The position numbers and the translations under genes were made by a program. Below, piece by piece: positions 6,911 through 61,845 of a stretch of 64,000 bases of DNA (the first letter of the stretch is position 1; each line of letters starts with the position of its first letter). The notes under the pieces were generated by a model. That model was not told the origin of the DNA, made no database searches, and saw only the letters and a list, made by a program, of their open reading frames with translations. Origin of the DNA: an uncultured Gammaproteobacteria bacterium (lineage in GTDB: Bacteria; Pseudomonadota; Gammaproteobacteria; Competibacterales; Competibacteraceae). The stretch spans positions 16,030 to 80,029 of the forward strand of contig CAVOGC010000008.1 of NCBI GenBank assembly GCA_963695105.1, given 5' to 3'.

Positions 6911-6911
6911 C

Positions 6912-11105: not shown

Positions 11106-11984
11106 TCAGTCGCCTCGCGCCTGAGCCATCACCTCGGCGGCGAAATTGTCGGATCTTCTCTCAATCCCTTCACCCAGTTCGAAGCGTTCGAACCGGACCG
11201 CCCGGGCCTGATGGGCCTTCAGCAGTTTTTCCACGCTTTGCTCGGGATCCTTGACGAACGGCTGGCCCAGCAGGGTGACTTCATCGAAGTACTTGCGCAG
11301 CCGTCCCTCCACCATCTTTTCGATAATGTTGGCCGGCTTGCCGCTGGTCGCCGCTTGCGCCGCGAAAATTTCCTTCTCCTTGGCCACATGCTCGGTCGGT
11401 ATCTGGTCGGCACTGACGCACAGCGGCCGGCTGGCGGCGACATGCATGGCGATATCCCGGGCCAAATCGCCATCGCCGCCGTCCAGTTCGACCAGCACGC
11501 CGATGCGAGTTCCATGCAGGTAGCTGCCCAGCACGCCGCCGGAGGTCGCCAGCCGGGCGAAGCGGCGGACATTGACGTTCTCGCCGATTTTGGCGATGCA
11601 CTCCCGCCGGCTCTGCTCGACGCTCTGGCCGTTCGCCACGGGCAAGGCCAGCAGCGCCTCCAGATCGGCGGGCTCATTATTCAGGACCACCTCGGCCACG
11701 GCGGCGGCGAATTCCCGGAAGTCGTCGTTCTTGGTGACGAAATCGGTTTCGCAGTTCACCTCGACCATGGCCGCCGCGCCGGCCGCCTGCCTGATGACGA
11801 TCAGGCCCTCGGCGGCTACCCGGCTGGCTTTCTTGTCAGCCTTGGCCTGTCCGGCCTTGCGCATCAATTCGACCGCCGCTTCGATATCGCCCTGGGTCTC
11901 CTGCAGGGCTTTCTTGCATTCCATCATTCCCGAACCCGTGCGTTCGCGCAGTTCTTTAACCAGCGTCGCCGTAATTTCCACCAT
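11106..11984 (-). CDS. tsf: translation elongation factor Ts
   Basis: [30 protein letters not shown]-like N-terminus typical of EF-Ts; start at 11984. Confidence 0.9.
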
Positions 11985-12125
11985 GCTCACGTACCTCATT
12001 AAATAGATTTACCGCAATCAATCTGAAACCGGACTGAACCGAACTCATTAAAAAAAGGCTCGCGAGCGTCAGGCACACGAGCCTCTTTGACAAAATCCGG
12101 TATTAAGCGGAAGAATCAGCGAAGA

Positions 12126-12884
12126 TCAAACGCCATCGCCCGCCGGCAGCGTCTCTTCCTCCGGGATTTCGATGAACTCTTCCTCGGCGCGGCCCGAGGT
12201 CAGCACCGCGCGTCCTTCCAGCACTGCTTCCGCCAGACCGCCCACGTAGAGCTGAATGGCGCGGATGGCGTCATCGTTGCCGGGGATGATATAGCTGATA
12301 CCGTCGGGCGAATTGTTGCTATCGACCACCCCAACCACCGGTATCCCCAGTTTATTGGCCTCCTGCACGGCGATGCGTTCGTGGCCGACGTCGATCACGA
12401 ACAGCGCATCCGGCAAGCTGGCCATGTCCTTGATGCCGCCCAAGCTGCGTTCCAGCTTGCCCATATCCCGCCGCAAACCGATGACTTCTTTCTTGGCCAA
12501 CTGCTCGAAAGTGCCGTCCTGAGCCATCAGCTCCAGATCCTTGAGCCGTTTGATGGACTGGCGGACGGTCTTGAAGTTGGTCAGCATACCGCCCAGCCAG
12601 CGGTGATTGACATAAGGCATGCCGCAACGGAGCGCCGCTTCGGCGGTCGCCTCGCGGGCCGAGCGCTTGGTGCCCACCAGCATGATCTTGCCACCCTTGG
12701 AAGCCAGCCGCCCGATGAAATTCAGTGCTTCCAGATACAGCGGCAGGGTTTTTTCCAGATTGATGATGTAGATCTTGCTGCGCGCCCCGAAGATATACGG
12801 GGCCATTTTGGGATTCCAGTAACGGGTCTGGTGGCCGAAATGCACGCCGGCCTCCAGCATCTGGCGCATGGAAATGGTCGCCAT
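12126..12884 (-). CDS. rpsB: 30S ribosomal protein S2
   Basis: [27 protein letters not shown].. canonical S2 N-terminus; start at 12884. Confidence 0.95.
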
Positions 12885-13176: not shown

Positions 13177-13944
13177 ATGAGCATTACTCTCAAGACGCCG
13201 GAAGAAATCGAAAAGATGCGCGTCGCCGGCCGGCTGGCCGCCGAGGTACTGAACATGATTCAGGCTCATGTGCGGGAGGGGGTCGCCACCGATGAGCTGG
13301 ACCGGATCTGTCACGAGTACATCATCGACGTTCAACAGGCGATCCCCGCTCCACTCAACTATCGCGGCTTTCCCAAATCCATCTGCACCTCGATCAACCA
13401 TGTGGTCTGCCATGGCATTCCCGGACCGAAGAAGCTGAAAAAGGGCGACGTGCTCAACATCGATATCACCGTGATCAAGGACGGCTATCACGGCGACACC
13501 AGTCGGATGTTTCACGTCGGCACCCCGCCGGTCGCCGCGCAGCGTGTCAGCCGGGTGGCCTACGAATGCCTCTGCATCGGCATCGAGATGGTGCGGCCCG
13601 GTATCCGCCTCGGCGACATCGGCCACGCCATCCAAAAACACGCCGAAGCCCAGCACTGCTCGGTGGTGCGCGAATACTGCGGTCACGGCATCGGCCGGGA
13701 ATTCCACGAAGAGCCGCAGGTGCTGCACTACGGGGACCCCGACACCGGCGTCGAACTGGTCCCCGGCATGACCTTCACCATCGAACCGATGATCAACGCC
13801 GGCAAGCGACACGTCAAGTTGCTACCCGACGGTTGGACCGTGGTCACCAAGGATCACAGCGTTTCCGCTCAATGGGAGCATACCGTGCTGGTCACCGCAA
13901 CCGGCCACGAAGTCCTCACGCCGCACCCAGGCGATCCGTTTTAA
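13177..13944 (+). CDS. map: type I methionine aminopeptidase
   Basis: Pita-bread fold motifs (HGIP, CGHGIGREFHEEPQV); divergent from rpsB as in E. coli; start at ATG 13177 (MSITLKTPEEIEKMR). Confidence 0.9.
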   Translation: MSITLKTPEEIEKMRVAGRLAAEVLNMIQAHVREGVATDELDRICHEYIIDVQQAIPAPLNYRGFPKSICTSINHVVCHGIPGPKKLKKGDVLNIDITVIKDGYHGDTSRMFHVGTPPVAAQRVSRVAYECLCIGIEMVRPGIRLGDIGHAIQKHAEAQHCSVVREYCGHGIGREFHEEPQVLHYGDPDTGVELVPGMTFTIEPMINAGKRHVKLLPDGWTVVTKDHSVSAQWEHTVLVTATGHEVLTPHPGDPF

Positions 13945-16708: not shown

Positions 16709-16769
16709 GCCTCAAGATGCCCGCGCCCACCGTCCCGACCCGCTGGCCCGCGCCTGTAGGAACTTTCCC

Positions 16770-17009
16770 ATGCCCGTCCGCTCTAACTTCACCTTTTTGT
16801 TACCAGGACTGATTCCGCTCGTCATCATTCCTGTCGCCATCGCCGCCGAGATCGTTCCCAAGAACGGCCCCTGCCCCAGCGGCTATCACACCCAGGGTCA
16901 CTACTGCGTCGGCAATCGGGACCATCCGCCCGCCGCCATTCCCAAGAGCGGCCCCTGCCCCAGCGGCTATCACACCCAGGGTCACTACTGCGTCGGCAAT
17001 CGGCGCTGA
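16770..17009 (+). CDS. small secreted protein with tandem duplicated Cys/His motif (PKxGPCPSGYHTQGHYCVGNR x2)
   Basis: 79 aa, N-terminal signal-like hydrophobic segment (LLPGLIPLVIIPVAIAA); two 63-nt DNA repeats (16857-16919, 16941-17003) 62/63 identical. Confidence 0.55.
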   Translation: MPVRSNFTFLLPGLIPLVIIPVAIAAEIVPKNGPCPSGYHTQGHYCVGNRDHPPAAIPKSGPCPSGYHTQGHYCVGNRR

Positions 17010-17369
17010 GCCTGTCCTCGGCCGTCACCACGGGCGCTCCACGCTCCCGTCCATCCTCACCGTGATGAAACAACCGGCGGTGAGTGTCGATCGGCGAGCG
17101 CGGAAATCCCATACCATCCGCACCCGCTTGAGCCACAGTCGGTCACCGGACAGGCAATCCACGACTACACTCAATAGTCAAGCTGCCCGGCCTCCGCCGG
17201 CTGACCCATCGGCAGTCCTACTTTGATATTTTCATGGTTTCGGTGGCCATTCCGGTGAGCGCCCTGGTGGTGGTCAATCACCCTGGGAACGATGTTTGGC
17301 AGCTTCTGAGCCTGGCCCGCCGTCCGCGACCACGGGCGGCGGCTCCCATTAAATGACGAGGGACATCTC

Positions 17370-19373
17370 ATGCGGCATCCTCTGCTCGCCTCCCTGCACA
17401 TTCCCGAACGCGGCAAGGTGGTCAGCGCCCGCGAGGCCGTGAGCCTGATCCGCCCCGGCGATACGGTGGCCACTAGCGGCTTTGTCGGTACCGGCTTTGC
17501 CGAGAACATCGCCTGCGCCGTCGAGGAACTGTATCTGGCGCCCGACGCACCGGTGCTGGACAAACTCCGCGATCTGACCCTGGTCTACGCCGCCGGCCAG
17601 GGTGACGGCAAAACCCGCGGCCTCAATCACTTCGGCCACGAGGGGCTGGTTAAACGCATCATCGGCGGGCACTGGGGACTGGTGCCGAAGCTGCAAGCGC
17701 TGGCGGTGAGCAATCAAATCGAAGCCTGGAACCTGCCACAAGGTGTGATCACTCATCTGTACCGCGACATCGCCGCCGGCAAGCCGGGGACGCTGACCCG
17801 GGTCGGGCTGGGCACTTTCGTCGATCCGCGCCATGGCGGCGGCAAGCTCAACGCCCGCACCGAGCAGGATCTGGTCGAACTGATGGTGATCGGCGGCCAG
17901 GACTATCTGCTCTACAAAGCATTCCCGATCCATGTCGGCATCATCCGCGCCACCACCGCCGACATCGACGGCAACCTGACCATGGAAAAGGAGGCGCTGA
18001 CGCTGGAATCGCTGGCCATCGCCATGGCGGCGCGCAATTCCGGCGGCATCGTCATCGCCCAGGTCGAGCGGGTGGCCGAGCGCGGCTTCCTGCGGCCCAA
18101 GGATGTGCGGGTGCCGGGCATTTTGGTGGATTGCATCGTGGTCGCGCCGCCTGAACACCACTGGCAGACCTTCGCCACTCAATACAACCCCGCGTTTTCC
18201 GGCGAGATCAAGGTGCCGCTGACCTCGATTGCGCCCATGCCGATGAGCGAACGCAAAATCATCGCCCGCCGCTCGGCGCTGGAGCTGGCGATGAACGCCA
18301 TCGTCAATCTCGGCATCGGTATGCCGGAAGGGGTAGCCAGCATTGCCGCCGAGGAGAAGATCATCGATCTGCTGACCTTGACCGCCGAGCCGGGGGTGGT
18401 GGGCGGCATTCCCGCCGGCGGGCTGGATTTCGGCGCCGCCACCAACGTCCAGGCGATCATCGACCAGCCCAATCAGTTCGATTTCTACGACGGCGGCGGG
18501 CTGGACATCGCGGTGCTGGGGTTGGCTCAGGTCGACCGGCAGGGCAATCTCAACGTTTCGAAATTCGGCCCGCGCATAGCCGGCGCCGGCGGCTTCATCA
18601 ACATCAGCCAAAACGCCCGAAAGGTAGTGTTCGCCGGGACGTTTACCGCCGGCGGGCTGGACATCGCGGTGGAAAAAGGTCAGTTGCGCATCCGGCGCGA
18701 CGGAGGAACCGCCAAGTTCGTCGAGACGGTCGAGCAGCGCACCTTCAGCGGCGAGGTGGCCTGTCGCGGCAAGCAGCCGGTGCTGTATGTGACCGAACGG
18801 GCGGTGTTCCGCTTGACCCCGGAAGGGCTGGAACTGGTGGAGATAGCGCCAGGGATCGATCTGGAGCGCGACGTGCTGGCGAAGATGGGATTTCGGCCCG
18901 CCATCAGCCCGCACCTCAAACCAATGGATGCTTGCATTTTCAATGACGGGCCGATGGGTTTGCGCGAACTCATGGTCGTGCGGCCATTGGATCAGCGGTT
19001 TTCCTACGACTCCGCCAAGAACGTGCTCTTCCTGAATTTCGAGGGTCTGTCGGTGCGCAGCCATGAGGATATCCAGCGCATTCGCGCGGCGATAAGTGGT
19101 CGGTTGGAGCCGCTCGGCAAGCGGGTGTTCGGTATTGTCAACTACGACAATTTCTCGATTACTCCGGAATTGATGCAGGAGTATATGGATATGGTCAGCG
19201 ACTTGCTGCAGCGCTACTACCTGGGCGTAACCCGCTACACCACCAACACTTTCCTGCGGGCGCAGCTTGGCGATGCCCTGCGCCAGCGCGACCTCGCGCC
19301 CCATATTTATGAAACCGCCGCCGAGGCGGCGGCACGACTCGATCCGTCCAGAGCACCCAAGGGGAACGCTTGA
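17370..19373 (+). CDS. propionate/acyl-CoA:acetate CoA-transferase family protein (Pct-like) with about 140-aa C-terminal extension
   Basis: N-terminal 520 aa collinear with Clostridium propionicum Pct (GFVGTGF.., [53 protein letters not shown]); extra C-terminal domain of unknown function. Confidence 0.8.
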
Positions 19374-50229: not shown

Positions 50230-50253
50230 ACACACCGCGCCTTGCGACCATTC

Positions 50254-50344
50254 CGAATCCCGAACCCCGAACCCCGAACCCCGAACCCCGAACCCCGAAC
50301 CCCGAACCCCGAACCCCGAACCCCGAACCCCGAACCCCGAACCC
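50254..50344. repeat. heptanucleotide microsatellite (CGAACCC)x12 perfect + 1 imperfect
   Basis: Direct read: cgaatcc cgaaccc x12; between stop of topB-recQ fusion (50345) and start of hlyIII (50229). Confidence 0.95.
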
Positions 50345-53300
50345 TCAACGCTTTCTGCCCCCGCTCCGTTTGCGCCGCGCCCCACTCTTGGCCGCCGCCT
50401 CCCGCAACCGCACCGCCCCCACCTCGCCGATACCCGCTTTCCGGCCCGCCTCGGTCAGATAAACCCGGCGGAAGGGAATCACCCTGCCGTCGCGACTGAA
50501 GGCGTCCTCGCGCAATTCGAGCAGACCGGCGCCGGTCATCGCCTCCAACAGTCGTTCGAACTCCCGCCGCTCGACCCCCTCCGTCAGCCTTTCGCACAAC
50601 TGCCGGGGCGTTTGACCCTCGCGCCAGCGTAGCGCGTCCAGCACCTGCAAGGCCCGTTCGCTCTCGACCCGATTCAGCCGGCGGGTGCGCCGGATCGTCG
50701 CCGCCTCCGGCGCGCACACGTCGCAGATCCCACAGGGCTGGTCGTCGTCCCGGTCGCCGAAATGCCGCACCAGCCGGACCATGCGGCAACCGGTCGCCTG
50801 ATCGGCAAAATCCAGAATCTGCTTCAACTCGCTCAGCTTGTGCTCACGCTGCCGCTGGTAGGGCGGACACCAGCCGTCCTCGCCGCGACTGAGGTTGCCC
50901 TCGACATCGCGCCGGGCGCCGCCATGCACCAGCAGCTTTTCCACGGCGGCATCGAACTCCTCCAGCGCCATGCCCGACCGGTCGCGCAACAGCACCCGGG
51001 GTTGAGGATCGCCGCCGAGCGCCTGAAAGATCGCCGCCAGCCGCTCCGGGTCGGGGTAGCCGCGCCGGAAGAAAAACTCGTGGGTGCGCAGATCGGCATA
51101 GGAATACAGCAGGATGGCGCGGGCCGGCTGACCGTCGCGCCCGGCGCGACCGATTTCCTGGTAATAACCCTCGACGCTGCCCGGCAGGGCGGTATGAATC
51201 ACGGTGCGGATATCCGGCTTGTCGATGCCCATGCCGAACGCGATGGTGGCGACGATCACCTGCAAGCGGCTGGCGCCGAACAACCCTTGCACCCGCTCGC
51301 GCTCCTGCGGCGTCATCCCGGCGTGATAGGCGGCAGCCGGATAATTCGCCCCCAGTTCCAGCGCCAGCAACTCGGTTTCCTTGCGAGTCGGCGCGTAGAC
51401 GATGGCGGGCCGGCGATCCGGATCGGCCAGCACCCGCCCGACCGCCGCATGCCGGTCGGCCATCGGCGTTTCCACCGTCTCGACCGCCAGATTGGCGCGA
51501 CGAAAGCCGTGGATGTAGCGCATCGCCTCCGGCATGTCGAGCTGGCGCACGATGTCGTCCTGCACCAGCACGGTGGCGGTCGCGGTCAGCGCGATCACCG
51601 GCGCCGGCCGCAACAGGGGCAAATGCCGGCCCAGCATCCGGTAGTCCGGGCGGAAATCGTGACCCCACTGCGAGATGCAGTGCGCCTCGTCGACCGCGAT
51701 CAGGGCCGGCTTGCGCTTGGCCAGCATTTCGGGAAAACCGGGCACGCTCAGCCGCTCCGGCGCAATGAACAGATAATCCAGTTGGCCCTGCAAATACTCG
51801 ACGCACACCTGACGCGACGTGGCCCGGTCGCGGCCGGAGTGGATGCGTTCGGCCCGCAGGCCCAGCTCGCACAATTTGGTGACCTGATCTTCCATCAGCG
51901 CGATCAGCGGCGAAACCACCAGCGTCGTCCCCGCCCGGGCGATGCCGGGCAACTGAAAGCACAGCGACTTGCCGGCGCCGGTCGGCATCACCAGCAACAC
52001 GTCCCGGCCCTCGGTCACGGTCCGGCACACCTGTTCCTGATACGGACGAAAGGCTGGCAAGCGAAACTCGCTGTGCAGCAACTCCAGCAGACGGTCCACC
52101 GGCACCGGTTCCCGTCGCGGCGCGGCTTCTCGACTCTCCCCTCCTCCATCGATGGCGAGGGGGTTGGAGGGTGAGATCGGCCGCGCCACCGCGAACGCCT
52201 GGACCACCGCTTCGCCGACGTAACCGGCGATGGCGGTCATGAACCCGTCCAGATCTCCCTCGCCGCGCTGGATGCGCTTCAGCCGCGCTTCCCACTCGCC
52301 GGTCATGATCGGGCTTTTAATCGGTGGCTGCACCGCCTGAATCAAGCCAATGCCGCGCTCGGTGGCGTTCAGCGCTTTGCCGTCGCGAGTCAGATACCGG
52401 CGTTTGAGCAAAGTTTCGATGATGTCGGCGCGGGTGGCCGGCGTGCCCAGCCCGCTGTCCTTCATCGCCGCCGACAGCTCCTTGTCCTCCAGAGCCCGGC
52501 CGGCGGTTTCCATCGCGGTGAGCAGGGCCGCTTCGGTCAGACGCGGCGGCGGCCGGGTCTGCTTGGCCAGCTCGCGGACGTCCAGCACCCGCAACGGCTG
52601 GCCAACGGTCAACCCCGGCGGCAGGCTTTGTTCGGCCTCGTTCTCCTCGGTTGCCGCGCCAGCCTTGGCCTTGGCCTTGCGCGTGCCGGCGGCTTTTTCC
52701 GCCGCCGGCACGGTTTGCACCTCCAATACCTTCCAACCGACCTGCTCCACCGCCGTGCCGCTGCTGTGATAGCGATCGACCACGATCACGCCATCCGCTT
52801 CGCTCGTGGCGATCGCGGTGATCAGCGTGGTCACCGCCCAGAGGTGATCGTCGTGCCAGGCCATCAACAACCGGCGGCAGATCAGGTCGTAAATTTTCCG
52901 CTCGTCGGCGCTCAAGGCGGCACGCGCCGGCAGCGGGGTGGGAATGATGGCGTGATGGTCGGTCACTTTGCCGTCGTCGACGAAGCGCTTGCCCAAGAGG
53001 CGCTGGCCGCAGCCCGGCCCCAACCGGTCCTGATAGGGTGGCTGGATCGCCGCGACCACCGCGCCCAGCGTCGCCGCGACCGCGCTGGACAGATGGCGGC
53101 TGTCGGTGCGCGGGTAGCTGATCAGCTTGTGCTGCTCGTACAGCTTCTGGGCGAGGTCCAGCGTGGTCTGGGCGCTGAAGCCGTATAGCCGGTTGGCGTG
53201 GCGCTGCAATTCGGTCAGGTCGTACAGCAGGGGCGGGGCGGCGCGGCGGGTTTCGGCGGTACGGGATTCGACGGCGGCCTTTCCCGTCTGGGCGCGGGCG

Positions 53301-54151
53301 ACGATGCGCCCGGCTTCCTCGCCGTCGGCGAGCAGGCGTTTGGCCTTGGGCTCGGGGCGTTCGCCGCGAAACCAGACGCCCTGGTAGCGCGGTTCCTTCT
53401 CTTCCGGCCACTCTCCCACAGGGAGAGCCCTCACCCCCAACCCCTCTCCCGCTGGCGGGAGAGAGGAGTTTTGGGGCGCGAAAGTCGCCACCACTTCCCG
53501 GTAATCTTCAGGCACGAAAGCGCGAATCGCCAGGTCCCGCTCCACCACCACCGCCAGGGTCGGGGTCTGCACCCGTCCAACCGACAGCGCCTCATCGCCC
53601 GGCGCGCCGCAGGCCAGGGTATAGGCCCGCGACAGATTCATGCCCACCAGCCAGTCGGCCTGACTGCGGCCGCGGGCGGCGGCGGCCAGCGGATCGAACT
53701 CGCAACTGTCGCGCAAATGCTGGAAGCCCTGGCGGATGGCGTCGGGGGTCAGCGAGGAAATCCACAGCCGGCTGAACGGCTTGCGGCAACCGGCGGCTTC
53801 GTAGAGATAACGGAAAATCAATTCGCCCTCGCGGCCGGCGTCGGTGGCGCAGATCACCCGCTCGATAGCCTCGTCGTTGAGGATGCGGCGGACCGCCTCA
53901 AACTGATCGCGGGTTTGCTCGCCGACCACCAGCGGCCAGCGTTCGGGCAGCAGTGGCAACAGTTCGCGCCGCCAGCGCTTCCAGGCCGGATCGATCTCGT
54001 GCGGCTCGGCCAACCGCACCAAATGACCGACCGCCCAGGTGACGACGTAGCCGTTACCGTGCAGGAAACCTTCGCCGCGCTGGCGGGCGCCCAGCACCTT
54101 GGCGATATCTCGGGCGACGGAAGGCTTTTCGGCAACGACCGCAATACTCAT
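50345..54151 (-). CDS. DNA topoisomerase III (TopB, type IA) fused in-frame to a full-length RecQ-family helicase
   Basis: Single uninterrupted 1271-codon ORF. N-terminal 640 aa collinear with E. coli TopB (AEKPSVARDIA, GHLVRLAEP, VGRVQTPTLAVVVERD, LISYPRTDSRHL, DHHAIIPT); C-terminal 590 aa is RecQ (FRPYQEQ, MPTGAGKSLCFQLP, DEAHCISQWGHDFRPDY, helicase C, RQC zinc motif CGICDVC). Start ATG 54151 (MSIAVV) overlaps stop of upstream receiver gene as ATGA; upstream ATG 54160 also possible. Confidence 0.8.
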   Translation of the reverse strand: MSIAVVAEKPSVARDIAKVLGARQRGEGFLHGNGYVVTWAVGHLVRLAEPHEIDPAWKRWRRELLPLLPERWPLVVGEQTRDQFEAVRRILNDEAIERVICATDAGREGELIFRYLYEAAGCRKPFSRLWISSLTPDAIRQGFQHLRDSCEFDPLAAAARGRSQADWLVGMNLSRAYTLACGAPGDEALSVGRVQTPTLAVVVERDLAIRAFVPEDYREVVATFAPQNSSLPPAGEGLGVRALPVGEWPEEKEPRYQGVWFRGERPEPKAKRLLADGEEAGRIVARAQTGKAAVESRTAETRRAAPPLLYDLTELQRHANRLYGFSAQTTLDLAQKLYEQHKLISYPRTDSRHLSSAVAATLGAVVAAIQPPYQDRLGPGCGQRLLGKRFVDDGKVTDHHAIIPTPLPARAALSADERKIYDLICRRLLMAWHDDHLWAVTTLITAIATSEADGVIVVDRYHSSGTAVEQVGWKVLEVQTVPAAEKAAGTRKAKAKAGAATEENEAEQSLPPGLTVGQPLRVLDVRELAKQTRPPPRLTEAALLTAMETAGRALEDKELSAAMKDSGLGTPATRADIIETLLKRRYLTRDGKALNATERGIGLIQAVQPPIKSPIMTGEWEARLKRIQRGEGDLDGFMTAIAGYVGEAVVQAFAVARPISPSNPLAIDGGGESREAAPRREPVPVDRLLELLHSEFRLPAFRPYQEQVCRTVTEGRDVLLVMPTGAGKSLCFQLPGIARAGTTLVVSPLIALMEDQVTKLCELGLRAERIHSGRDRATSRQVCVEYLQGQLDYLFIAPERLSVPGFPEMLAKRKPALIAVDEAHCISQWGHDFRPDYRMLGRHLPLLRPAPVIALTATATVLVQDDIVRQLDMPEAMRYIHGFRRANLAVETVETPMADRHAAVGRVLADPDRRPAIVYAPTRKETELLALELGANYPAAAYHAGMTPQERERVQGLFGASRLQVIVATIAFGMGIDKPDIRTVIHTALPGSVEGYYQEIGRAGRDGQPARAILLYSYADLRTHEFFFRRGYPDPERLAAIFQALGGDPQPRVLLRDRSGMALEEFDAAVEKLLVHGGARRDVEGNLSRGEDGWCPPYQRQREHKLSELKQILDFADQATGCRMVRLVRHFGDRDDDQPCGICDVCAPEAATIRRTRRLNRVESERALQVLDALRWREGQTPRQLCERLTEGVERREFERLLEAMTGAGLLELREDAFSRDGRVIPFRRVYLTEAGRKAGIGEVGAVRLREAAAKSGARRKRSGGRKR

Positions 54152-54462
54152 AACCGGCATGGGGCCGAAGCCGGCCGGCGGTCGTTCCCTCCGGTCCCGC
54201 TATCCGGTTCATGGAGAGCGCCCCGCGCCATGGCGATCTTGACAAACTCCTCGTCCGGGACCGCGCGGGAGAAATAGACACCCTGCCCGTACTTGCAGCC
54301 CAGGATCAGGTCACAGCCGGTCGTGGCAACCATCTGGAGCGCCTCCTCGCCGTTGTCCGCCGCCATCACGGCGAACCCGTCCCACTCCAGAGCCTTTCTG
54401 GCGAGCAGGCGCATCATGGGATCGTCGTCCGCCACCAGGACACTCGCCCTTCCGTTGTCCAT
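54148..54462 (-). CDS. degenerate single-domain response-regulator receiver (internally shortened, phosphoacceptor Asp absent)
   Basis: [54 protein letters not shown] then G instead of acceptor D and only about 8 residues before a beta5/alpha5-like GVYFSRAVPDEEFVKIA; ATG overlaps HK stop (ATGA). Confidence 0.55.
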   Translation of the reverse strand: MDNGRASVLVADDDPMMRLLARKALEWDGFAVMAADNGEEALQMVATTGCDLILGCKYGQGVYFSRAVPDEEFVKIAMARGALHEPDSGTGGNDRRPASAPCRL

Positions 54463-57284
54463 CAGCTTTTCTCCAGCACGGCTCGCAGAGCGGCTTCCAC
54501 TCGGTTGAATTGTTGACACAAGGTCTGAATGGGCTCAGTGGCCCGCTCGGACTGGCCGGCGCGGACGGCGGTCTCGATCTCGTGGCAGCGGGCCGCGAAA
54601 TCCAGGGCGCCGATGTTGGTGCTGCTCGCTTTCAGGGTGTGGGCGGCGCGAATCAGCGTTTCCCGGTCCGCCGTGGCGTGGGCGGTCTCGGCGGCTCCCA
54701 CCAGCGTCCGGCCGTTGTCCAGGTACAGCCCGATCACCTTGGCCAGCAGGTCGGGTTCACCCGGCGCTTGCAGGGCGCGGATCGCCGCCAGCGCGGCCGG
54801 GTCGAGCGCGGCCGGGTCGAGCGCGGCCTGGGCGTCCGGCGCGGCCGTGGCCGGCGGAACCTCGGCGGGCGGCGATGGGGACGCGGTCTCGGGCGCGGCG
54901 GTTGCGAGCGCGCCGGGCGCCCAGCGTCGCAGTATCGCCACCAGTTCGGTTTGGTTATACGGTTTGGCGAGGAAGTCGTCCATGCCGCAGGCCAGACAGT
55001 CCTCCCGGTCGCCCTGCAGCGCATTGGCGGTCAGGGCGACGATGGGAAGGCGCCGCGCCGCCGGTTCCCGCGCGCGGAGGCGGCGAGTGGCTTCGTAGCC
55101 GTCCATGACCGGCATCTGACAATCCATCAACACCAGGTCGAAATCGGCGTCCGCCACGGCGTCCAGGGCTTCCCCGCCATCGTTGGCCAACACCACCCGA
55201 CAGCCCAGTTGCTCCAACTGCTCCAGGGTCAGGACCTGGTTCACCGGGTTGTCTTCGACCAGCAGTACGCGGGTACCGGGGAAAACCGCGGTGGGGGTGG
55301 CGTCCGGGTTGGAAGCGCCGGCTTCGACGGACTGGGACAGTCCGGCGGCGACCATCAGGGCTTCGAGCAGCTCGCGCGGTTCCACGGGCTTGTGGAGCAC
55401 CGCCTCAAAACCGGCCTGCTGGAGCTGGCGCGCGCCCTGTCGATCCGGACGGACGCACACGAGGATGACGTGAGCCTGGACCAGGCTGGGGTGATCGCGC
55501 AGAGCGCACGCCTGGGCCAAGCTTTCCGGGCTGGCCATGTCCATGGCGAGCAGCACGAAGCGGTAGGGCGCGCCGGCGGCCGCGACCGCCCGCGCCATGG
55601 ACAGGACCGCACCGCTATCGCGCGTTCGATCGGCCCGCAGGCCCAGCGCGCCCAGTTGTCCGACCAGGACCGCGCCCGCGGTCGGGTTGTCATCGACGAC
55701 CAGGGTGTTCGACTCGCGCAGGGAATCCGGCGCGACGAGCGGGGTGGCCGCCTCCAGTTCGGGCACGCTGGCCGTGAACCAGAAGGTCGAACCGTGTCCC
55801 GGCTGGCTTTCCACCCCCACCTGGCCGCCCATGAGGCGAGCGAGATCCTGACTGACCGCAAGCCCCAGACCGGTGCCGCCGAACCGGCGGGCATGGGAGC
55901 TGTCCGCCTGGGAAAAGGGCTGGAACAACTTGGGCAGCACCTCGGCGGCGATGCCCATCCCGGTGTCGCGCACGCTGAACTTGAGCACGATCCGCCGATC
56001 CTCCCCCTCTGGCGCGGCAACCCGTTCCAACCGCAGAACCACCTCGCCGCGCTGAGTAAACTTGATGGCATTGCTCACCAGGTTGGTGAGGATCTGACGC
56101 AGGCGATTGGGATCGGCGCACACCTGCCGAGGCGTCGCCGGCGTGACCTCGCAGATCAGCTCGATGTCCTTCTCCCGCGCGCGTGGGAGCAGCAAGCCCG
56201 CCACATCGAACAATAGGCTGCTGGGGTCGCACGGAATGGTCTCCAATTCCATGCGACCCGCCTCGATCTTGGAAAAATCCAGGATGTCGTTGATGACGCG
56301 CAACAGGCTGTTGGCGGAACCCCGGATGTGCTCCAGGAAACGGCGCTGGCGCTCGTTCAGGGGCGTGTCGGCGAGCAGTTCCGCCATGCCCATCACCCCG
56401 TTCATGGGCGTGCGAATCTCGTGGCTCATGGTGGCCAGGAAGCGGGATTTCGCCCGGCTGCCTTCTTCGGCGGCTTCCTTGGCCACCAACAGCTCGGCAT
56501 CCCGGGCCTGGATCTGGTTCAGCATGGTGTTGAAGCCGTCGATCAAGGTGCCGATCTCGTCGTTGGCGGTACGGGCGACGCGCAGGGAATAATCCTTGGT
56601 CTCCGACACGGCGCGCATCCGCTCGGCCAGATCGGTGATGGGCGTCGAGATCAGCCGTTGCAGGCGGGCGGCGAGCAGGGTGGCGATGGCGAAGGCCAGC
56701 ACCAGCACGGCCAGGGCGAGCAGGATGCGGTTCTTTACCGTATGCGCCAGGCGGGACAGGTCCAGATAGATTTCAAGGCTACCCACCACCTTGTCGTTGA
56801 CCCGGATGGGCTGGCCTACTTCAAGGTAATGCAGGCCGCTGGTGTACAGAAACGGGCTTGTGAAATCGGCGTCGCGATGCCGCTCTTTCGCCCCATTCGG
56901 AGATGGACCATGATCGTCGTGGCTGTCGTGGCCGCGGATTTCCAGCAGCCGGTCGGCGTGACTGGGGTTCGCGCTTTCGTAGCGGGCGAACACATGCCCA
57001 TCGGGGGTGATCAGGATGGCGGCGATCACCTCCGGCTCGCTGCCCAGGGCCGCGAGGATTTCACCGGCCGCATCGGGGTCGCGAAAGGACAGGGCCGCCG
57101 CGCTGTTGACGCCCACCACCCGGGTCAGGGAGGCGGCGTATTCCTGCTTGGCACGCCAAGTGGCGGACAGCTCGCTGATCAGCAGGGCCAGCAGGGCGAC
57201 CGCCAGTCCGATGCTGGTGGTGATCAGCGCGATGGCGATGATTTTGCGCCGGATGGACAGATTGCGCAGGAAGTTCGAATTCAT
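54462..57284 (-). CDS. hybrid sensor histidine kinase/response regulator (TM-periplasmic sensor-HAMP-HisKA-HATPase-REC-REC-Hpt)
   Basis: 940 aa; HisKA H-box [18 protein letters not shown], HATPase N/G boxes, two receiver domains (LVVDDNP.., [25 protein letters not shown]), C-terminal Hpt. Confidence 0.9.
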
Positions 57285-57904
57285 GGCGCCTCGCCGCCCT
57301 TGCCGTCATGGATCCGGGTAGCCAGATTCAGCAGCTTGGAGCTGATCCGCAGTTGCGCTCGCGCCGCCGCGTCCAGATTGATGAGGGGATGCACCCGGCC
57401 TTGCTTGCGGATCAGGGCGATGGCGCCGCCCTCGACCGCGAAATTTTCCAGATCGCTGACGGTGAGCACGCCCACCGCCGCCGCCCGGCTCACCAGCGCC
57501 TGGTTGGCGGCCGAGGCCAGGTCAGCCCGGTCCAGGTAGAGCACATGGCATTCCGCCAGGTTGCCGGGATTCACTTGGCGGACCACCGTCAGCGGACGGC
57601 CGTCCAGGGTCTCGCCCCGAATCACCTTGTCGAGCACCGTGGCCAGCTCGTCGTCCAACACGCAATAGCGAAACGGCTGGGACGACCGGCGCGCGGGGGT
57701 GTCCGGCCAGCGCACGAAGTGGGCGAAGTTGTAGACGAACACGGCCTTGACCTCGATTTCGGCAAAGCGATCCGACGCCAGGCCGGCGGCGCCCACCGGA
57801 CCCGGCGCAAATAAGACCAGCGCCAGCACCCACGGCGATACCCACGAACGCCACGGGGCAAGGCGTCCTGGCGGCGGGGCGCGTTTCTGGATTTCGGCTT
57901 GCAT
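57281..57904 (-). CDS. YfiR-like periplasmic protein (DUF4154)
   Basis: 207 aa from ATG 57904 with signal peptide; [16 protein letters not shown] motif typical of DUF4154; stop overlaps HK start (ATGA). Track ORF 57281..59017 is over-extended. Confidence 0.65.
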
Positions 57905-57924: not shown

Positions 57925-59925
57925 TCAAAAGCGCCAGTTCACCATCAAATAAAATTCCCGGGAGATGAGATAGGCATCGCTGGCGGCGATCGCGGGGGTC
58001 CCGTATTCCAAGTGGCTGGGTCCCAGCAGATTGCGGCCAACCAGCGCCAGCTCCAGATCCTGGTCGGCCCGCCAGCCCAGGCGCGCGTCGGCGGTGAAGT
58101 AGGCTTTGACGGCGTAGGCGGGCAGCTCGCCGACATAGCGCGCTTGCACGTCCAGTGCCAGATCGCGACCGAGGTCCAGATTCGAGATGAGGCTGAATTG
58201 GTGACGTGGGGATTCGCCCTCGGCCCGCTTCGGGGACAGTTCGGTATTGTCCGGCTTCGGGTCGAGGTCGATGCTCAAATAGGAATAGGCCGCCCGCAGA
58301 CGCCACGCATCCCACGGGCGGTAGTCGGCGGCCAGCTCGAAGCCGTGGGTCCAGCCTTGCAGGTTGTTGCCCACCTTGCTCGGCCAAAGCAGGTAGGGGG
58401 ACGGCAGGGGCACGAGCGTCGGCGAACCGATCATGTCGATGGAAACCAGCCGGTCGTAGTCGCTCAGGAAAGCGGTGACGTCCAGACCCAGTTGGGGCGT
58501 CACTGGCAAGCGGTAACCAAGCTCGTAGCTGGTGAGGAGCTCGGCATCCAAATTGGCGTTGCCTCTGGACAGAATCACCAGCGGCAGATCCGAAGTCGCC
58601 GGGCTGGGCGGGATCAGCGAAATCAAAGTCCCGCTGTCCTCGATCAGGGAGGGCGTGCGCACGGCGCGGGAGATCGCGGCCCACAGGGTGCCGCGACCCG
58701 GCGGCGACCAGCGCAACCGGGCCGATGGCTGCCATTCCAGGCCGGTGAAATCGTTGTGTTCCGCTTTCACGCCCAAGGTCAGATAGAGCTGGTCCGGCAT
58801 CAGGGTGATGTCGTCCTGAACGAAGGCGCTGAACAACTAGTCGGTCCGGCGCGGATCGGCGATGGCGGTGGGGGCGATTGCATCGACATCCAGCCTGACT
58901 GCTCGATAACTCAGTCCGGCGACCAGATTGTGCGCCCCCATAGTGGGAAACTGGTGGCAATAAGCCAGATCCAGCGTATCCACGACCGCCTCGGCGGCGT
59001 TGCCGACAACCTGCCATTTGTCCAGGCTGAAACGGTGGATGTAGCTCTGAAACACATCCTTGGCGCCGTCCGCCGAAACCGTTTCCCAGTAGCCCAGCAG
59101 ATGACCGCCGCTGTACTGGCGTTCGCTACCCACGCGCTCGCGATAAAGCTCGCCCTGGACCATCAGGGCGGCGTCGCCCAAATCCCAATCGCCGCGAAAA
59201 CCGCTGCGCCCGCCGCTCCAGTCCAAATCGGGGGCTTGACTCGGAAAGGCTTGTTCCAGGCCATCCTGCTGGTGGACCTTGGCATAGAGGCGAGCATGAC
59301 CGCTCTCCCCGAGCTTGAAGCCGGTGCGCGCCACCAGTTCGGACTGCTGGTCGCCCCCCACCGCGCTCACCAGCGTGCCTTGGGTATCCTCGGCGGGCTT
59401 GGTAATGATGTTGATGACGCCGTTGACCGCGTTCGCGCCCCAGGTGGCGCCACCGGGACCGCGCACCACTTCGATGCGCTCCACATCCCGCAGGACGATA
59501 TTCTGCTCGTCCCAGATCACGCCGGAGAACAGGGGCGTGTAGAGGCTGCGGCCGTCCACCATCACCAGGAGTTTGTTGGCGAACTGGTTGTTGAAGCCGC
59601 GCGAGCTCACCGCCCATTCCGAGGCGCTGAGGCGCGCCACGTCGAGACCCGGCACCGTGCACAGCAGCTCTGGCAGGGTGGTGGCGCCGGAACGGCGGAT
59701 ATCCTCGGCGGTGATCACATACACCGCCGCCGCCGTGTCTTCCAGACGTTCCAGGCGGTTCGAGGCAATGGAGACGCGCAAATCGGCCAGTTCGTCCAGA
59801 CTCATCTGTTTGAGGGCGCTCAAACTGTCCGCGCCGGCGTTGGCGCTGGCCAAGACAAGGGCGAACCGCAGGGCCAGCGCCGGTCCGCCACCGGAGCGCG
59901 GGATCGAGCGGTCGTTTCTGTTCAT
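57925..59925 (-). pseudogene. TonB-dependent receptor interrupted by a single in-frame TAG (58837-58839)
   Basis: ORF 58837..59925 = signal peptide + plug domain; ORF 57925..58836 = rest of beta-barrel ending in aromatic F; both in the same frame, separated only by TAG within ACTAGT (..ADPRRTD * LFSAFVQDD..); combined length 666 aa. Confidence 0.75.
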
Positions 59926-60036
59926 GAGGTTTTTTTCGGGGAATTATCAATTGTCATTGGTGATCCGTGGTCGAGACAGGCGATCACCGTTTCGCCAAGT
60001 GGCGCTTGCCCGTGATCCATCGGCGCCTTCCTCCAA

Positions 60037-60313
60037 CACCGCTCGCCGCGCGACCTCAACCCGATCGAGTTTAGCGCGCACGCTTTCGATGGGCTCGGCG
60101 GCCCGCTCGGGCTGGCCGGACGCGGGCGGCCAGCGGATTGAGCTTACAACTGTCGCGTAAATGTTGGAAGCCCTGGCGGATGGCGTCGGGGATCAGCGCG
60201 GAAATCCATCGCCGGCTGAACGGCTTGCGGCAACCGGCGGCTTGGTGGAACCAGCGGAAGATCGACTCGCCCTCGCGGACGGAAGGCTTTTCGGCAACGA
60301 CCGCAATGCTCAC
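60037..60313 (-). pseudogene. scrambled gene remnants: Hpt/HK C-terminus-like fragment (60037-60125) joined to internally deleted topB N-terminal fragment (60126-60313)
   Basis: 60278-60313 encodes MSIAVVAEKPSV (= TopB N-terminus at 54125-54160); 60126-60270 about 85% identical to 53690-53830 of topB; 60037-60125 encodes ..GQPERAAEPIESVRAKLDRVEVARRAVLE, paralogous to HK C-terminus ..[29 protein letters not shown]. Confidence 0.6.
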
Positions 60314-60322
60314 GGCCCGCGC

Positions 60323-60700
60323 TCAGTCCGCCAGCGCCGGTTTCCAGGTCCACTGTTCGCCCGGCTCCGCACCGGTCGCGGCCCGCCAGCTCGACTCCAA
60401 ATCTTCTTCGACCCGCTCCACCACCGCGCCGTCCAACCGCTTCTGCCGGACAAAAGCCCGCAACATCTCCAGAATCCGGGCCGGGGACAGCGGCTGCCGG
60501 TAAGGCCGCTGTTGCGCCAGTGCCTGAAACACGTCGGCCACGGCGATGATCCGTATTTCCAGGGTCAGCTCCGCGCCGCCGCGATGGAACGGATAGCCCT
60601 GGCCATCGAGCGTCTCGTGATGGTAGGCGACCCAGACCGCGATGTCCTCCAGACCGTCGATGCCGCGCAGGATCTGGGATGTGATAAGGCGCCTGATTGC
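60323..60700 (-). pseudogene. C-terminal fragment of an HD-GYP phosphodiesterase (no HD motif/N-terminal half)
   Basis: ..VAYHHETLDGQGYPFHRGGAELTLEIRIIAVADVFQALAQQRPYRQ.. = HD-GYP C-terminal signature; upstream part of track ORF 60323..61309 is frame-overlap with mtnA. Confidence 0.5.
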
Positions 60701-60729
60701 GGCATGACCGTTATCATCCAAACACCGGT

Positions 60730-61845
60730 TCAAGCGGTCTCCACCATCATTTGCGCCATCTTCGCGGTATCCGGCGCTCGCACCACCCCGCGCTCGGTCA
60801 CCAGCGCATCCACCAGTTCCGCCGGCGTCACATCGAACGATGGATTCCAGGCTTCGGCCCCGGCGGCGGCGACCGGCTGGCCACCCAAGGTCAGCAACTC
60901 CTCGGCGGCGCGCTGTTCGATCGGAATATCGGCGCCGCTGACAAGGCTCATATCCACCGTCGAGGCCGGCGCCACCACCATGAACCGCACCCCGTGATAC
61001 CGCGCGGCCACCGCCAGATGATAGGTGCCGATCTTGTTGGCGACATCGCCGTTGGCGGCGATCCGGTCCGCCCCGACGATGGCCCAGCGCACCCTGCCCT
61101 CCCGCATCAGCGCCGCCGCCGCTCCATCCGCCAGCAGCGTCACCGGAATGCCGTCCCGCACCAGTTCCCAGGCGGTCAGCCGCGCCCCCTGCAACCACGG
61201 CCGGGTTTCGTCGGCGTAGACTCGCTCGACCAAACCCGCCGCGTAGCCCTCGCGGATCACGCCCAGCGCCGTGCCGTAGCCGCCGGTGGCCAGCGAGCCG
61301 GTATTGCAATGGGTCAGCACCGCCCCGCGCTCGCCCAGCAACGCCGCGCCCAACTGCCCCATGCGCCGGTTGGCGGCGATATCCTCTTCATGGATCGCCC
61401 GCGCCTCGGCCAGCAGCTCCGCCGCCGGATCGCCACCCACTCGGGCGATCGCGCGCTCCATCCGCCGCAGTGCCCAAAACAGGTTGACGGCGGTCGGCCG
61501 GGCCGCCGCCAGCGCGGCGAGATCGCTCCCGACCGTTCTCCGCCACCGTTCAGGATCTTCGGCATATCGAGCGCGGGCGGCCAACACCGTACCGTAGGCG
61601 GCGGCGATGCCGATCGCCGGCGCGCCGCGCACCACCATATCGTGGATCGCCTGAGCCACCTCCGTCGCGCCCGTCAGCCGCTGGTAGCGCTCCACGGCCG
61701 GCAGCAGGCGCTGGTCCAGCAGGTCCAGGGCGTCCTCGCGCCAGACAACGGCGCGCACGGCATCATGGGCATACGGCACGGCGGGTTTCGATCCAAGATG
61801 ACTGAGATAAGACCTGCAAAGGCAAGGAGTGCTCAAGCCACGCAC
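60730..61845 (-). CDS. mtnA: S-methyl-5-thioribose-1-phosphate isomerase
   Basis: eIF2B-related MtnA fold ([17 protein letters not shown].., [20 protein letters not shown]); start uncertain (ATG 61845 or GTG 61758). Confidence 0.8.

What the first reader, a model, noticed from the sequence alone, without database searches (positions are those of the whole stretch)
59950..60720. Gene-fragment graveyard: scrambled paralogous remnants of the HK C-terminus, topB 5' end and an HD-GYP domain
Three fragments are juxtaposed with no intact ORF:
- 60278-60313 reproduces the TopB start (MSIAVVAEKPSV).
- 60126-60270 is about 85% identical to an internal topB segment (53690-53830).
- 60037-60125 encodes a diverged paralogue of the hybrid HK Hpt C-terminus. 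On the minus strand the HK-like piece lies downstream of the topB-like piece, opposite to the intact operon, so it is not a simple deletion derivative.
- 60323-60700 is the C-terminal third of an HD-GYP phosphodiesterase.

This suggests a second, decayed copy of the HK/topB locus and recurrent rearrangement here.
Basis: seen in the sequence. Interest (0 to 1): 0.55.

Follow-up and report, generated by a model that had tools for sequence, protein, structure and literature searches.

The report
Gene relics at a recombination scar
This 0.8-kb stretch of a Candidatus Competibacter chromosome holds dead pieces of three genes, left when a signalling-gene cassette was spliced into the old junction between an HD-GYP gene and the topoisomerase III-RecQ gene; it is a well-preserved but ordinary scar of genome rearrangement.

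Summary
60117-60282 matches internal topB (53673-53838) at 86% over 166 nt. 60278-60312 matches the topB start at 34/35. 60010-60130 matches the last 36 codons of the hybrid kinase at 72%. 60323-60677 is the last ~118 codons of an HD-GYP gene.

Comparison with about 40 Competibacteraceae genomes changes the interpretation. In at least 13 species the order is mtnA, a 420-codon HD-GYP gene, a short spacer, then topB-recQ. The window's HD-GYP relic, spacer and topB start fragment are that ancestral junction, still in place. They are not debris of a separate second locus.

A cassette now separates this junction from an intact topB-recQ. It holds a TonB-dependent receptor, a YfiR-like gene, a CHASE8 hybrid kinase and a receiver-GGDEF-EAL gene. 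The topB/kinase joint lies on a ~10-nt microhomology. The three deletions have 2-5-nt microhomologies. The topB relic evolves neutrally (omega 0.68; mismatches 8/7/8 by codon position).

Best reading: illegitimate, homology-anchored recombination followed by deletions. I found two further lesions: the kinase-topB "intergenic" region is a gutted GGDEF-EAL gene, and the receptor has a premature TAG.

This is a known kind of feature, of modest interest. No independent assembly was available.

The parts
60730..61845 (-). mtnA (methylthioribose-1-phosphate isomerase). Intact flanking gene that anchors synteny.
   Evidence: Pfam IF-2B, E 5e-73. 89-90% aa identity to L001/L003 mtnA.
60678..60729 (-). 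Remnant of the mtnA-HD-GYP intergenic spacer, up to the left edge of a ~0.98-kb deletion.
   Evidence: Alignment A3: the window follows the L001 spacer for ~50 nt after the mtnA stop, then jumps to HD-GYP codon ~300.
60323..60677 (-). HD-GYP relic: the last ~118 codons plus the stop of a 420-codon gene. No start codon or promoter.
   Evidence: Pfam HD_5 positions 85-170/170. 91.5% nt identity to L001 2245-2599. Full-length 420-aa orthologue in L001 at 1337-2599. Omega against L001 is 0.52, versus 0.06-0.21 among intact orthologues.
60314..60322 (-). Ancestral 9-nt spacer between the HD-GYP stop and the topB start.
   Evidence: Alignment A2: GCGCGGGCC here, GCGCCATCC in L001, GCGCGGACT in L002. 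The intact topB copy has a different upstream sequence.
60278..60313 (-). topB relic, piece A: GTG start plus 11 codons (MSIAVVAEKPSV).
   Evidence: 34/35 identical to 54116-54150. 41/43 to L002 when the upstream junction is included.
60117..60282 (-). topB relic, piece B: codons ~108-163 (Toprim end). Joined in frame to A after a 282-nt deletion at the imperfect microhomology CCGTC/CCGGC.
   Evidence: 86.1% over 166 nt. Mismatches by codon position 8/7/8 and omega 0.68. Fisher p = 0.002 against orthologue comparisons. Junction shown in A2.
60010..60130 (-). Kinase relic (HK'): the last ~36 codons of an Hpt domain, with its stop lost, plus ~11 nt matching the start of the receiver-GGDEF-EAL gene that follows the kinase. 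60117-60130 is the overlap (microhomology) with piece B.
   Evidence: 71.9% over 121 nt to 54452-54569. 69.7% to the L004 kinase end. Alignment A1.
59926..60009 (-). 84 nt of unknown origin immediately upstream of the receptor start codon. Presumably the receptor's own leader and ribosome-binding region.
   Evidence: No nucleotide match in 104 loci. No Rfam, promoter or terminator hit.
57925..59925 (-). TonB-dependent receptor gene, interrupted by one in-frame TAG at 58837-58839.
   Evidence: blastx gives a single frame from 59919 to 57928, 61-63% identical to L082/L083/L085/L088 proteins. The TAG aligns to Gln in homologues. Pfam Plug.
57281..57835 (-). YfiR/HmsC-like (DUF4154) periplasmic protein gene. 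Appears intact.
   Evidence: Pfam DUF4154, E 1e-37.
54462..57284 (-). Hybrid histidine kinase (CHASE8-HAMP-HisKA-HATPase-REC-Hpt). Intact. Parent-like copy of the HK' relic.
   Evidence: Pfam.
54148..54462 (-). Relic of a receiver-GGDEF-EAL gene: about 55 N-terminal codons fused in frame to about 28 C-terminal codons at a CCTGG microhomology (~2.1 kb lost). Previously it looked like an intergenic region.
   Evidence: 54440-54301 is 78% identical to L004 7584-7723, and 54302-54232 is 80% identical to L009 9848-9918. Pfam Response_reg positions 1-47/111, E 4e-8. Alignment A4.
50345..54160 (-). Intact topoisomerase III-RecQ fusion gene (1271 aa). Its first ~163 codons are the sister copy of relics A and B.
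   Evidence: Pfam Toprim, Topoisom_bac, DEAD, Helicase_C, RecQ_Zn_bind. Its upstream junction is of the type seen behind receiver-GGDEF-EAL genes in L004/L010.

Best explanation
The stretch is a non-functional scar at the ancestral junction between an HD-GYP phosphodiesterase gene and the topoisomerase III-RecQ gene.

Ancestral state (shown by comparison): mtnA, then a 420-codon HD-GYP gene, a 9-nt spacer, then topB-recQ.

Proposed history (inferred):
1. A segment entered this site. It carried, in order: the tail of an older kinase gene (HK'); a c-di-GMP-type sensor cassette of TonB-dependent receptor, YfiR-like protein, CHASE8 hybrid kinase and receiver-GGDEF-EAL regulator; and a topB 5' end.
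2. One end joined the resident topB near codon 160 by illegitimate recombination across a ~10-nt GC-rich microhomology (GCCGCCCGCG, Ala-Ala-Arg codons present in both genes).
3. The other end was resolved by ordinary homologous exchange inside topB. This is homology-facilitated illegitimate recombination, or equivalently single-crossover integration of a circularised fragment. The donor was most likely a conspecific or very close haplotype that already carried the cassette.
4. This stranded the resident first ~163 codons of topB behind HD-GYP and put a complete topB-recQ behind the cassette.
5. The relics were then trimmed by microhomology-flanked deletions. One removed 282 nt inside the stranded topB piece. 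One removed ~0.98 kb, taking the promoter and first ~300 codons of HD-GYP. One removed ~2.1 kb inside the GGDEF-EAL gene.
6. The receptor acquired a nonsense codon.

The relics do nothing now, beyond forming the ~0.8-kb spacer between mtnA and the receptor gene.
For: Shown:
- The homologies are far above chance.
- The HD-GYP stop, spacer and topB start of the relic match the junction of L001/L002, while the intact topB has a different upstream sequence of the L004/L010 type.
- HD-GYP directly precedes topB in 13 species representatives.
- Relic B carries the window-lineage state at 9 of the 11 sites where the window's intact topB and L001 differ. This includes the derived QHL motif, against QQL/AQL/ARL/QKL elsewhere. 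It is therefore a duplicate from this lineage, not an ancient paralogue.
- Relic B evolves neutrally: mismatches 8/7/8 by codon position and omega 0.68, versus 0.06-0.16 for orthologues, Fisher p = 0.002.
- The two blastn matches overlap by 14 nt at the topB/kinase joint. GCCGCCCGCG is present in topB and in the L004 kinase.
- The three deletions have 2-5-nt microhomologies.
- The kinase relic is followed by the ATGGAYMACGG start of the regulator gene, as at the intact kinase-regulator junction here and in L004.
- The flanks (ribBA, ribH, hydrolases, mtnA, OmpA) are syntenic with L081, and no transposase or integrase lies nearby.

Against: - No conspecific genome or intermediate state was found. 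The only database proteins matching at 99-100% come from this same 121-kb contig. The order and number of events are therefore inferred.
- The model needs a kinase tail (HK') ahead of the receptor gene in the incoming segment. That implies an earlier tandem or displaced cassette, which was not observed in any relative.
- The kinase relic is more diverged from its counterpart (28%) than the topB relic is (14%), p = 0.004. The pieces may therefore differ in age or source.
- Polarity is not settled. The window is an outgroup to L001+L003, so one gain in the window lineage and one loss in the sister clade are equally parsimonious among the closest relatives.
- The microhomology length is read from homologues, because the true parent of HK' is unknown.
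Confidence: 0.55

Rival explanations
1. Decayed second copy. The lineage once had two complete units in tandem: HD-GYP, topB', and so on through HK' and a regulator gene, then receptor, YfiR, HK, regulator, topB. One large deletion from topB' codon ~163 to HK' codon -36 removed most of the first unit. Smaller deletions followed.
For: - It explains the topB-then-kinase order with a single deletion at the same microhomology.
- Tandem or duplicated cassettes exist elsewhere: L096 has two receptor genes and two GGDEF-EAL genes.
- L019 carries a partial, internally deleted second topB-recQ copy 2.6 kb downstream of the intact one.
- The different divergence of the two relics fits an older, separate HK'.
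Against: - None of 38 related loci has a second topB 5' region upstream.
- It still requires an earlier event that placed a second topB-recQ plus cassettes behind the resident one.
- Relic B is sister to the window's own copy, so no ancient paralogue is involved.
Confidence: 0.27
2. A single replicative template-switching event (FoSTeS/MMBIR-like). A stalled fork copied short stretches from nearby templates (topB start, topB codons 108-163, kinase end) and stitched them together by microhomology between HD-GYP and the receptor gene.
For: There are three short pieces. All have templates within 6.5 kb, they are in scrambled order, and they are joined at microhomologies.
Against: - Piece A is continuous with the ancestral HD-GYP-spacer-topB junction, so it is in place and not a templated insertion.
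- Divergence from the templates is heterogeneous at 3%, 14% and 28% (B vs C p = 0.004). That is unexpected for one event.
- It does not explain how the cassette came to lie between HD-GYP and topB.
Confidence: 0.08
3. Assembly artefact: a chimeric join or a collapsed repeat in a metagenome-assembled contig.
For: The source is a MAG-type contig. No second assembly of the same organism was found.
Against: - The copies are 86% and 72% identical, with neutral-looking substitutions. Misassembly joins near-identical repeats; it does not produce diverged ones.
- Both flanks are collinear with relatives.
- The junctions show biological microhomology patterns.
Confidence: 0.04
4. The fragments are retained for a function. 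Examples would be an 80-aa Toprim-derived peptide, a 118-aa HD-GYP tail protein (annotated as a 136-aa protein in the public record), or a regulatory leader for the receptor operon.
For: - The ORFs remain open. The A|B and GGDEF-EAL deletions are in frame.
- Piece A is 34/35 identical to the functional start.
Against: - Relaxed selection on B (omega 0.68) and on the HD-GYP tail (omega 0.52).
- The catalytic HD motif and the N-terminal domain of HD-GYP are missing, and most of the Toprim domain is missing.
- No promoter, terminator or Rfam hit.
- The exact 80-aa sequence is absent from 15 billion proteins.
Confidence: 0.04

Closest known systems
Orphan gene-piece arrays at Rhs/CDI and T6SS effector-immunity loci, attributed to homology-facilitated illegitimate recombination (PMC5361080; de Vries & Wackernagel 2002 and Prudhomme et al. 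2002 as cited there)
   Same: - An incoming module is anchored by homology on one side and joined illegitimately on the other.
- This displaces and strands pieces of the resident genes, which persist as relics next to the new module.
- Related strains differ in cassette content at one fixed chromosomal site.
   Different: - Here the modules are two-component/c-di-GMP signalling genes, and the anchor is a housekeeping-type topoisomerase III-RecQ gene, not a toxin gene.
- The stranded pieces appear dead, whereas orphan toxin or immunity genes are reusable.
- Only one scar is seen, not an array.
- The mechanism is inferred, not demonstrated.
Ordinary bacterial pseudogenes formed by microhomology-mediated deletion and nonsense mutation
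   Same: - Truncated homologues of functional genes.
- Relaxed selection.
- 2-5-nt microhomologies at the deletion joints.
- A single CAG-to-TAG change in the receptor gene.
   Different: Several relics from different genes are packed into 0.8 kb in non-native order. This records a rearrangement rather than simple decay in place.
YfiBNR/HmsCDE-type c-di-GMP control (YfiR-like periplasmic protein acting on a CHASE8 sensor domain)
   Same: The cassette encodes a DUF4154 YfiR/HmsC-like protein and a CHASE8 sensor, next to GGDEF-EAL and HD-GYP genes. This gives the functional context of the genes that were rearranged.
   Different: - The CHASE8 domain is on a hybrid histidine kinase, not on a diguanylate cyclase.
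- A TonB-dependent receptor takes the place of YfiB.
- Both c-di-GMP enzymes at the locus are destroyed in this genome.
- None of this was tested functionally.

Membership tests
Pseudogene / gene relic | Significant homology to a functional gene, but truncated or disrupted | tested here: met
   blastn E 5e-52, 1e-10 and 1e-10. HD_5 covers only profile positions 85-170. The full 420-aa orthologue is in L001.
Pseudogene / gene relic | Relaxed selective constraint | tested here: met
   topB relic: omega 0.68 and mismatches 8/7/8 by codon position, against 19:51 (positions 1+2 vs 3) in orthologues, p = 0.002. HD-GYP relic: omega 0.52 versus 0.06-0.21. Samples are small (55 and 119 codons).
Pseudogene / gene relic | Not expressed as a functional product | not testable with these tools
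   No expression data. No promoter-like site was predicted.
Homology-facilitated illegitimate recombination scar | Microhomology at the illegitimate joint | tested here: met
   14-nt overlap of the two matches at 60117-60130. GCCGCCCGCG is shared by topB and the L004 kinase.
Homology-facilitated illegitimate recombination scar | The other end is resolved within a homologous anchor, so anchor sequence flanks the insert | tested here: inconclusive
   topB codons 1-163 occur on both sides of the cassette as direct repeats. No crossover point can be located, because both copies are of the same lineage.
Homology-facilitated illegitimate recombination scar | The inserted DNA comes from another cell or haplotype | tested here: inconclusive
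   The cassette's nearest relatives (61-66% aa) lie in unrelated contexts. The family's own L004/L034 cassettes are only ~40% identical over the receptor and the kinase N-terminal part. The Hpt tail and regulator junction are L004-like. No donor was identified.
Diversity-generating retroelement (template/variable repeat pair) | Mismatches confined to adenines of the template repeat | tested here: not met
   The 23 substitutions are of all types: T>C 5, G>A 5, C>T 4, T>G 3, and others.
Insertion sequence / transposon insertion | Transposase gene, terminal inverted repeats, short target-site duplication | tested here: not met
   No inverted repeats bound the cassette. Neighbouring ORFs are housekeeping or signalling genes. 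The duplicated target is ~490 nt, far longer than a target-site duplication.
Functional HD-GYP phosphodiesterase | Complete HD-GYP domain, including the N-terminal H..HD metal ligands | tested here: not met
   Only the C-terminal half of the domain is present (HHETLDGQGYP onward). The first ~300 codons are deleted.
Assembly chimera | A join at near-identical repeats, with loss of collinearity with relatives | tested here: not met
   The repeats are 72-86% identical (34/35 for the 35-nt piece). The flanks are collinear with L001/L003/L081. Read-level support is not testable here.

The most novel reading that the evidence does not exclude
The HD-GYP|topB-recQ junction of Competibacteraceae could be a dedicated swap site. 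Sensor and c-di-GMP cassettes would be repeatedly exchanged between lineages, using the conserved topB 5' end (and HD-GYP) as homology anchors. This would be analogous to Rhs or T6SS orphan arrays, but for signalling modules. The window would preserve the only visible mis-resolved exchange.
Probability: 0.15. Interest if true: 0.5.

Novelty: new member of a known kind. Interest (0 to 1): 0.27.

Why it matters
- **Annotation.** Public annotation calls the HD-GYP tail (136 aa) and the truncated receptor (362 aa) as proteins. The kinase-topB spacer hides a dead GGDEF-EAL gene. In this genome the local c-di-GMP module has therefore lost both of its enzymes.
- **Evolution.** The locus gives a datable, multi-step record of microhomology-mediated rearrangement in an uncultured wastewater organism. 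It also shows that the region upstream of topB-recQ varies in gene content across the family.
- **Limits.** It does not reveal a new mechanism or a new kind of element.

Tried and rejected
- **Template/variable repeat of a diversity-generating retroelement.** Rejected: substitutions are of all types.
- **Transposon or IS insertion.** Rejected: no bounding inverted repeats and no transposase.
- **Riboswitch, sRNA, promoter or terminator in the scar.** Nothing found.
- **Frameshift in the receptor gene.** This was my first reading of the ORF list, and it was wrong. blastx shows a single frame with one TAG.
- **Short HD-GYP proteins on long contigs as evidence of a conserved truncated gene.** Rejected. 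For P0004, its contig L081 has many split genes, which indicates an error-prone assembly. P0006 and P0008 were not examined.
- **Search for an independent assembly or a conspecific strain.**
  - The genome scan found other species only.
  - The metagenome scan with the receptor gave at best 65% identity over the full-length match.
  - A protein search gave a next-best hit of 66%.
  - Exact look-ups showed that P0001 and P0025 come from the window's own 121-kb contig.
- **Plasmid search.** It returned only distant mtnA matches.
- **Self-duplication test.** None of 38 related loci has a topB 5' duplicate upstream of topB.
- **Not run.** I ran no further search on the 33-aa kinase relic, because a decayed query that short would not resolve its source.

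Full report
**1. What is in the sequence**

The window is 64% G+C. Around the finding, all genes are on the minus strand. In transcription order they are:
- mtnA (61845-60730);
- the ~0.8-kb region in question;
- a TonB-dependent receptor gene (59925-57925);
- a YfiR/HmsC-like DUF4154 gene (about 57835-57281);
- a 940-aa CHASE8 hybrid histidine kinase with REC and Hpt domains (57284-54462);
- ~300 nt of apparent spacer;
- a 1271-aa single ORF that fuses topoisomerase III (Toprim, Topoisom_bac) to a RecQ helicase (DEAD, Helicase_C, RecQ_Zn_bind) (54160-50345).

blastn of 59900-60800 against the rest of the window gave exactly three strong matches:
- 60117-60282 to 53673-53838: 86.1% over 166 nt, ungapped, E 5e-52;
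- 60278-60312 to 54116-54150: 34/35;
- 60010-60130 to 54452-54569: 71.9% over 121 nt.

The repeat finder recovered the same three pairs. The translated 60323-60721 region matches only the C-terminal half of Pfam HD_5.

**2. The organism and the ancestral arrangement**

A scan of one genome per species with the first 200 residues of the topoisomerase returned Candidatus Competibacter, Contendobacter and other Competibacteraceae as closest relatives, at up to 97% identity.

In the nearest one with enough flank (L001) the order is as follows:
- mtnA;
- a 138-nt spacer;
- a complete 420-aa HD-GYP gene;
- 9 nt;
- GTG-initiated topB-recQ.

HD-GYP lies 2-47 nt upstream of topB in 13 species representatives. 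A fourteenth (L025) has an internally deleted HD-GYP at the same place. Other species show different orders:
- HD-GYP, receiver-GGDEF-EAL, topB (L009, L010, L017);
- GGDEF-EAL, topB (five loci);
- HD-GYP, receptor, YfiR, kinase, GGDEF-EAL, topB (L004);
- HD-GYP, receptor, YfiR, kinase, topB (L034);
- neither gene upstream (seven loci).

The segment upstream of topB-recQ is therefore a hot spot of gene-content change in this family.

**3. The relics sit at the ancestral junction**

Alignment A2 shows that the end of the HD-GYP relic, its stop, the 9-nt spacer and the GTG start of piece A are collinear with L001 and L002. The spacer reads GCGCGGGCC here, against GCGCCATCC and GCGCGGACT.

The intact topB has an unrelated upstream sequence (…CCCCATGCCGGTTATGAGT). 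That sequence resembles the junction behind the GGDEF-EAL gene in L004 and L010. So piece A is the original topB start, in place.

Pieces A and B are joined in frame after loss of 282 nt. The joint is at CCGTC/CCGGC.

Piece B ends, and the kinase relic begins, inside GCCGCCCGCG. This string is present both in topB (Ala-Ala-Ala-Ala-Arg codons) and in the L004 kinase (Ile-Ala-Ala-Arg). The two blastn matches overlap by 14 nt there.

The kinase relic has lost its stop. It runs into ATGGATCACGG, which matches the ATGGACAACGG start of the regulator gene overlapping the intact kinase stop, here and in L004. The next 84 nt, up to the receptor start codon, match nothing.

On the other side, alignment A3 shows that the window keeps ~50 nt of the mtnA-HD-GYP spacer and then jumps to HD-GYP codon ~300. 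This is a deletion of ~0.98 kb.

**4. Are the relics dead, and how old are they?**

*Relic B against the intact copy:*
- 23 mismatches, spread 8/7/8 over codon positions, with omega 0.68.
- The intact copy against five orthologues shows 19:51 (positions 1+2 versus 3) and omega 0.06-0.16. Fisher p = 0.002.

*Lineage of relic B:*
- At the 11 sites where the window's intact topB and L001 differ, the relic carries the window state at 9. This includes the derived QHL motif.
- It is therefore a duplicate from this lineage, not an ancient paralogue and not L001-like DNA.

*Age:*
- The relic's non-synonymous divergence is 0.14.
- That is of the order of half the synonymous distance between the window and L001 (0.28-0.38).
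- So the duplication is old, roughly as old as that species split, with wide error.

*HD-GYP relic:*
- Constraint is relaxed (omega 0.52 against L001, versus 0.06-0.21 between intact orthologues).
- The excess change is much smaller (window-branch dN about 0.05), so its truncation is probably later.

*Kinase relic:*
- It is 28% diverged from the intact kinase, significantly more than B from topB (p = 0.004).
- It probably has a different age or source.

*Other tests:*
- The substitutions are not adenine-specific.
- No promoter-like, terminator-like or Rfam feature lies in the scar.

**5. Further decay at the same locus**

The ~300-nt kinase-topB spacer is itself a relic:
- 54440-54301 is 78% identical to the start of the L004 receiver-GGDEF-EAL gene.
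- 54302-54232 is 80% identical to the end of the L009 gene.
- The ORF 54148-54519 hits Response_reg positions 1-47 of 111 (E 4e-8).
- The two halves are fused in frame at a CCTGG microhomology.

The receptor gene is one continuous frame, 61-63% identical to metagenomic homologues. It has a TAG at 58837-58839 where they have Gln. Both c-di-GMP enzymes encoded here, and the receptor, are thus inactivated. The YfiR-like gene, the kinase and topB-recQ look intact.

**6. Origin of the cassette**

Nucleotide similarity to the nearest receptor-YfiR-kinase cassettes runs only from 59836 to 54942, that is, through the kinase REC domain. These cassettes are on contigs L082-L088 (61-65% aa for the receptor) and are not next to HD-GYP or topB.

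The Hpt tail and the regulator junction resemble L004. The family's own L004 and L034 cassettes are only ~40% identical over the receptor and the kinase N-terminal half. The cassette is therefore itself mosaic, and it is not a simple orthologue of those in L004 and L034.

**7. Mechanism**

What is shown:
- an in-place ancestral junction;
- a lineage-own duplicate of topB codons 1-163 on both sides of the cassette, as direct repeats;
- a microhomology joint to a kinase tail;
- three microhomology deletions.

The simplest history has four steps:
- The lineage began with HD-GYP directly upstream of topB.
- A segment headed by an older kinase tail and ending in a topB 5' region was joined illegitimately to resident topB codon ~160.
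- It was resolved homologously within topB. This is homology-facilitated illegitimate recombination, or integration of a circularised fragment by one crossover.
- Deletions followed.

This mechanism is documented experimentally in transformable bacteria. It has been invoked for orphan arrays at T6SS and Rhs loci (PMC5361080).

It needs the same joint plus an unexplained earlier duplication. It gains some plausibility from L096 (tandem cassettes). It also gains some from L019, which carries a 98-99% identical, internally deleted partial second topB-recQ copy and two HlyIII fragments downstream of the intact gene.

A one-step template-switching origin is unlikely, because piece A is in place and divergences differ. 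An assembly artefact is unlikely, because the copies are diverged and the flanks are collinear with relatives. Even so, no second assembly of this organism exists in the collections searched.

**8. Verdict**

This is a new example of a known kind of feature, namely recombination and deletion scars made of pseudogene pieces. It has value for annotation and as an evolutionary record, but it is not a new mechanism. Interest 0.27.

Noticed in passing
window 54148-54462 (-): The apparent intergenic region between the hybrid kinase and topB is a gutted receiver-GGDEF-EAL gene. About 55 N-terminal codons are fused in frame to about 28 C-terminal codons at a CCTGG microhomology. It matches the L004 and L009 genes at 78-80% nt.
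   Followed up: yes
window 58837-58839 (-): A single in-frame TAG interrupts the TonB-dependent receptor gene where homologues have Gln (CAG). It is either a true nonsense mutation or a consensus error. The public record annotates only the 362-aa N-terminal part.
   Followed up: partly
window 50253-50344: Thirteen perfect-to-near-perfect tandem copies of the heptamer CCGAACC (GGTTCGG on the gene strand) abut the recQ stop codon. The repeat is absent from all 104 related loci fetched.
   Followed up: partly
window 50345-54160 (-): Topoisomerase III and a RecQ helicase are encoded as one 1271-aa ORF. The same fusion or tight adjacency appears in Competibacteraceae. TopB and RecQ matches are also directly adjacent in the Bryobacteraceae/Solibacteraceae (Acidobacteriota) loci L040-L041. 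The topB scan also hit Myxococcota, where RecQ adjacency was not examined. It is a natural counterpart of the RecQ-Top3 partnership, often preceded by an HD-GYP gene.
   Followed up: no
L019 14850-17498: Another Competibacter species has a 98-99% identical, internally deleted partial second copy of its own topB-recQ (11655-12465 plus 13445-13757, copied at 16345-17451). It also has two HlyIII gene fragments ahead of the intact HlyIII gene. This is either an independent fragment cluster beside topB-recQ or a long-read assembly artefact.
   Followed up: partly
L025 about 6780-7335: The HD-GYP gene directly upstream of topB is internally deleted (residues 1-123 joined to 354-420). This is an independent decay of the same gene in another species.
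   Followed up: no
window 60326-60685 vs L001/L002/L003: The HD-GYP relic is synonymously closest to L001 (dS 0.16, against 0.39 and 0.49 to L003 and L002). In contrast, mtnA and topB group L001 with L003. This hints at inter-lineage recombination within HD-GYP, but it rests on only 119 codons.
   Followed up: partly
L081 (JGI 3300056788 contig): Many genes on this Competibacter-like contig are split into two calls (mtnA, an amidohydrolase, HD-GYP). This indicates an error-prone assembly, so short HD-GYP proteins in the protein database are not evidence of conserved truncation.
   Followed up: partly
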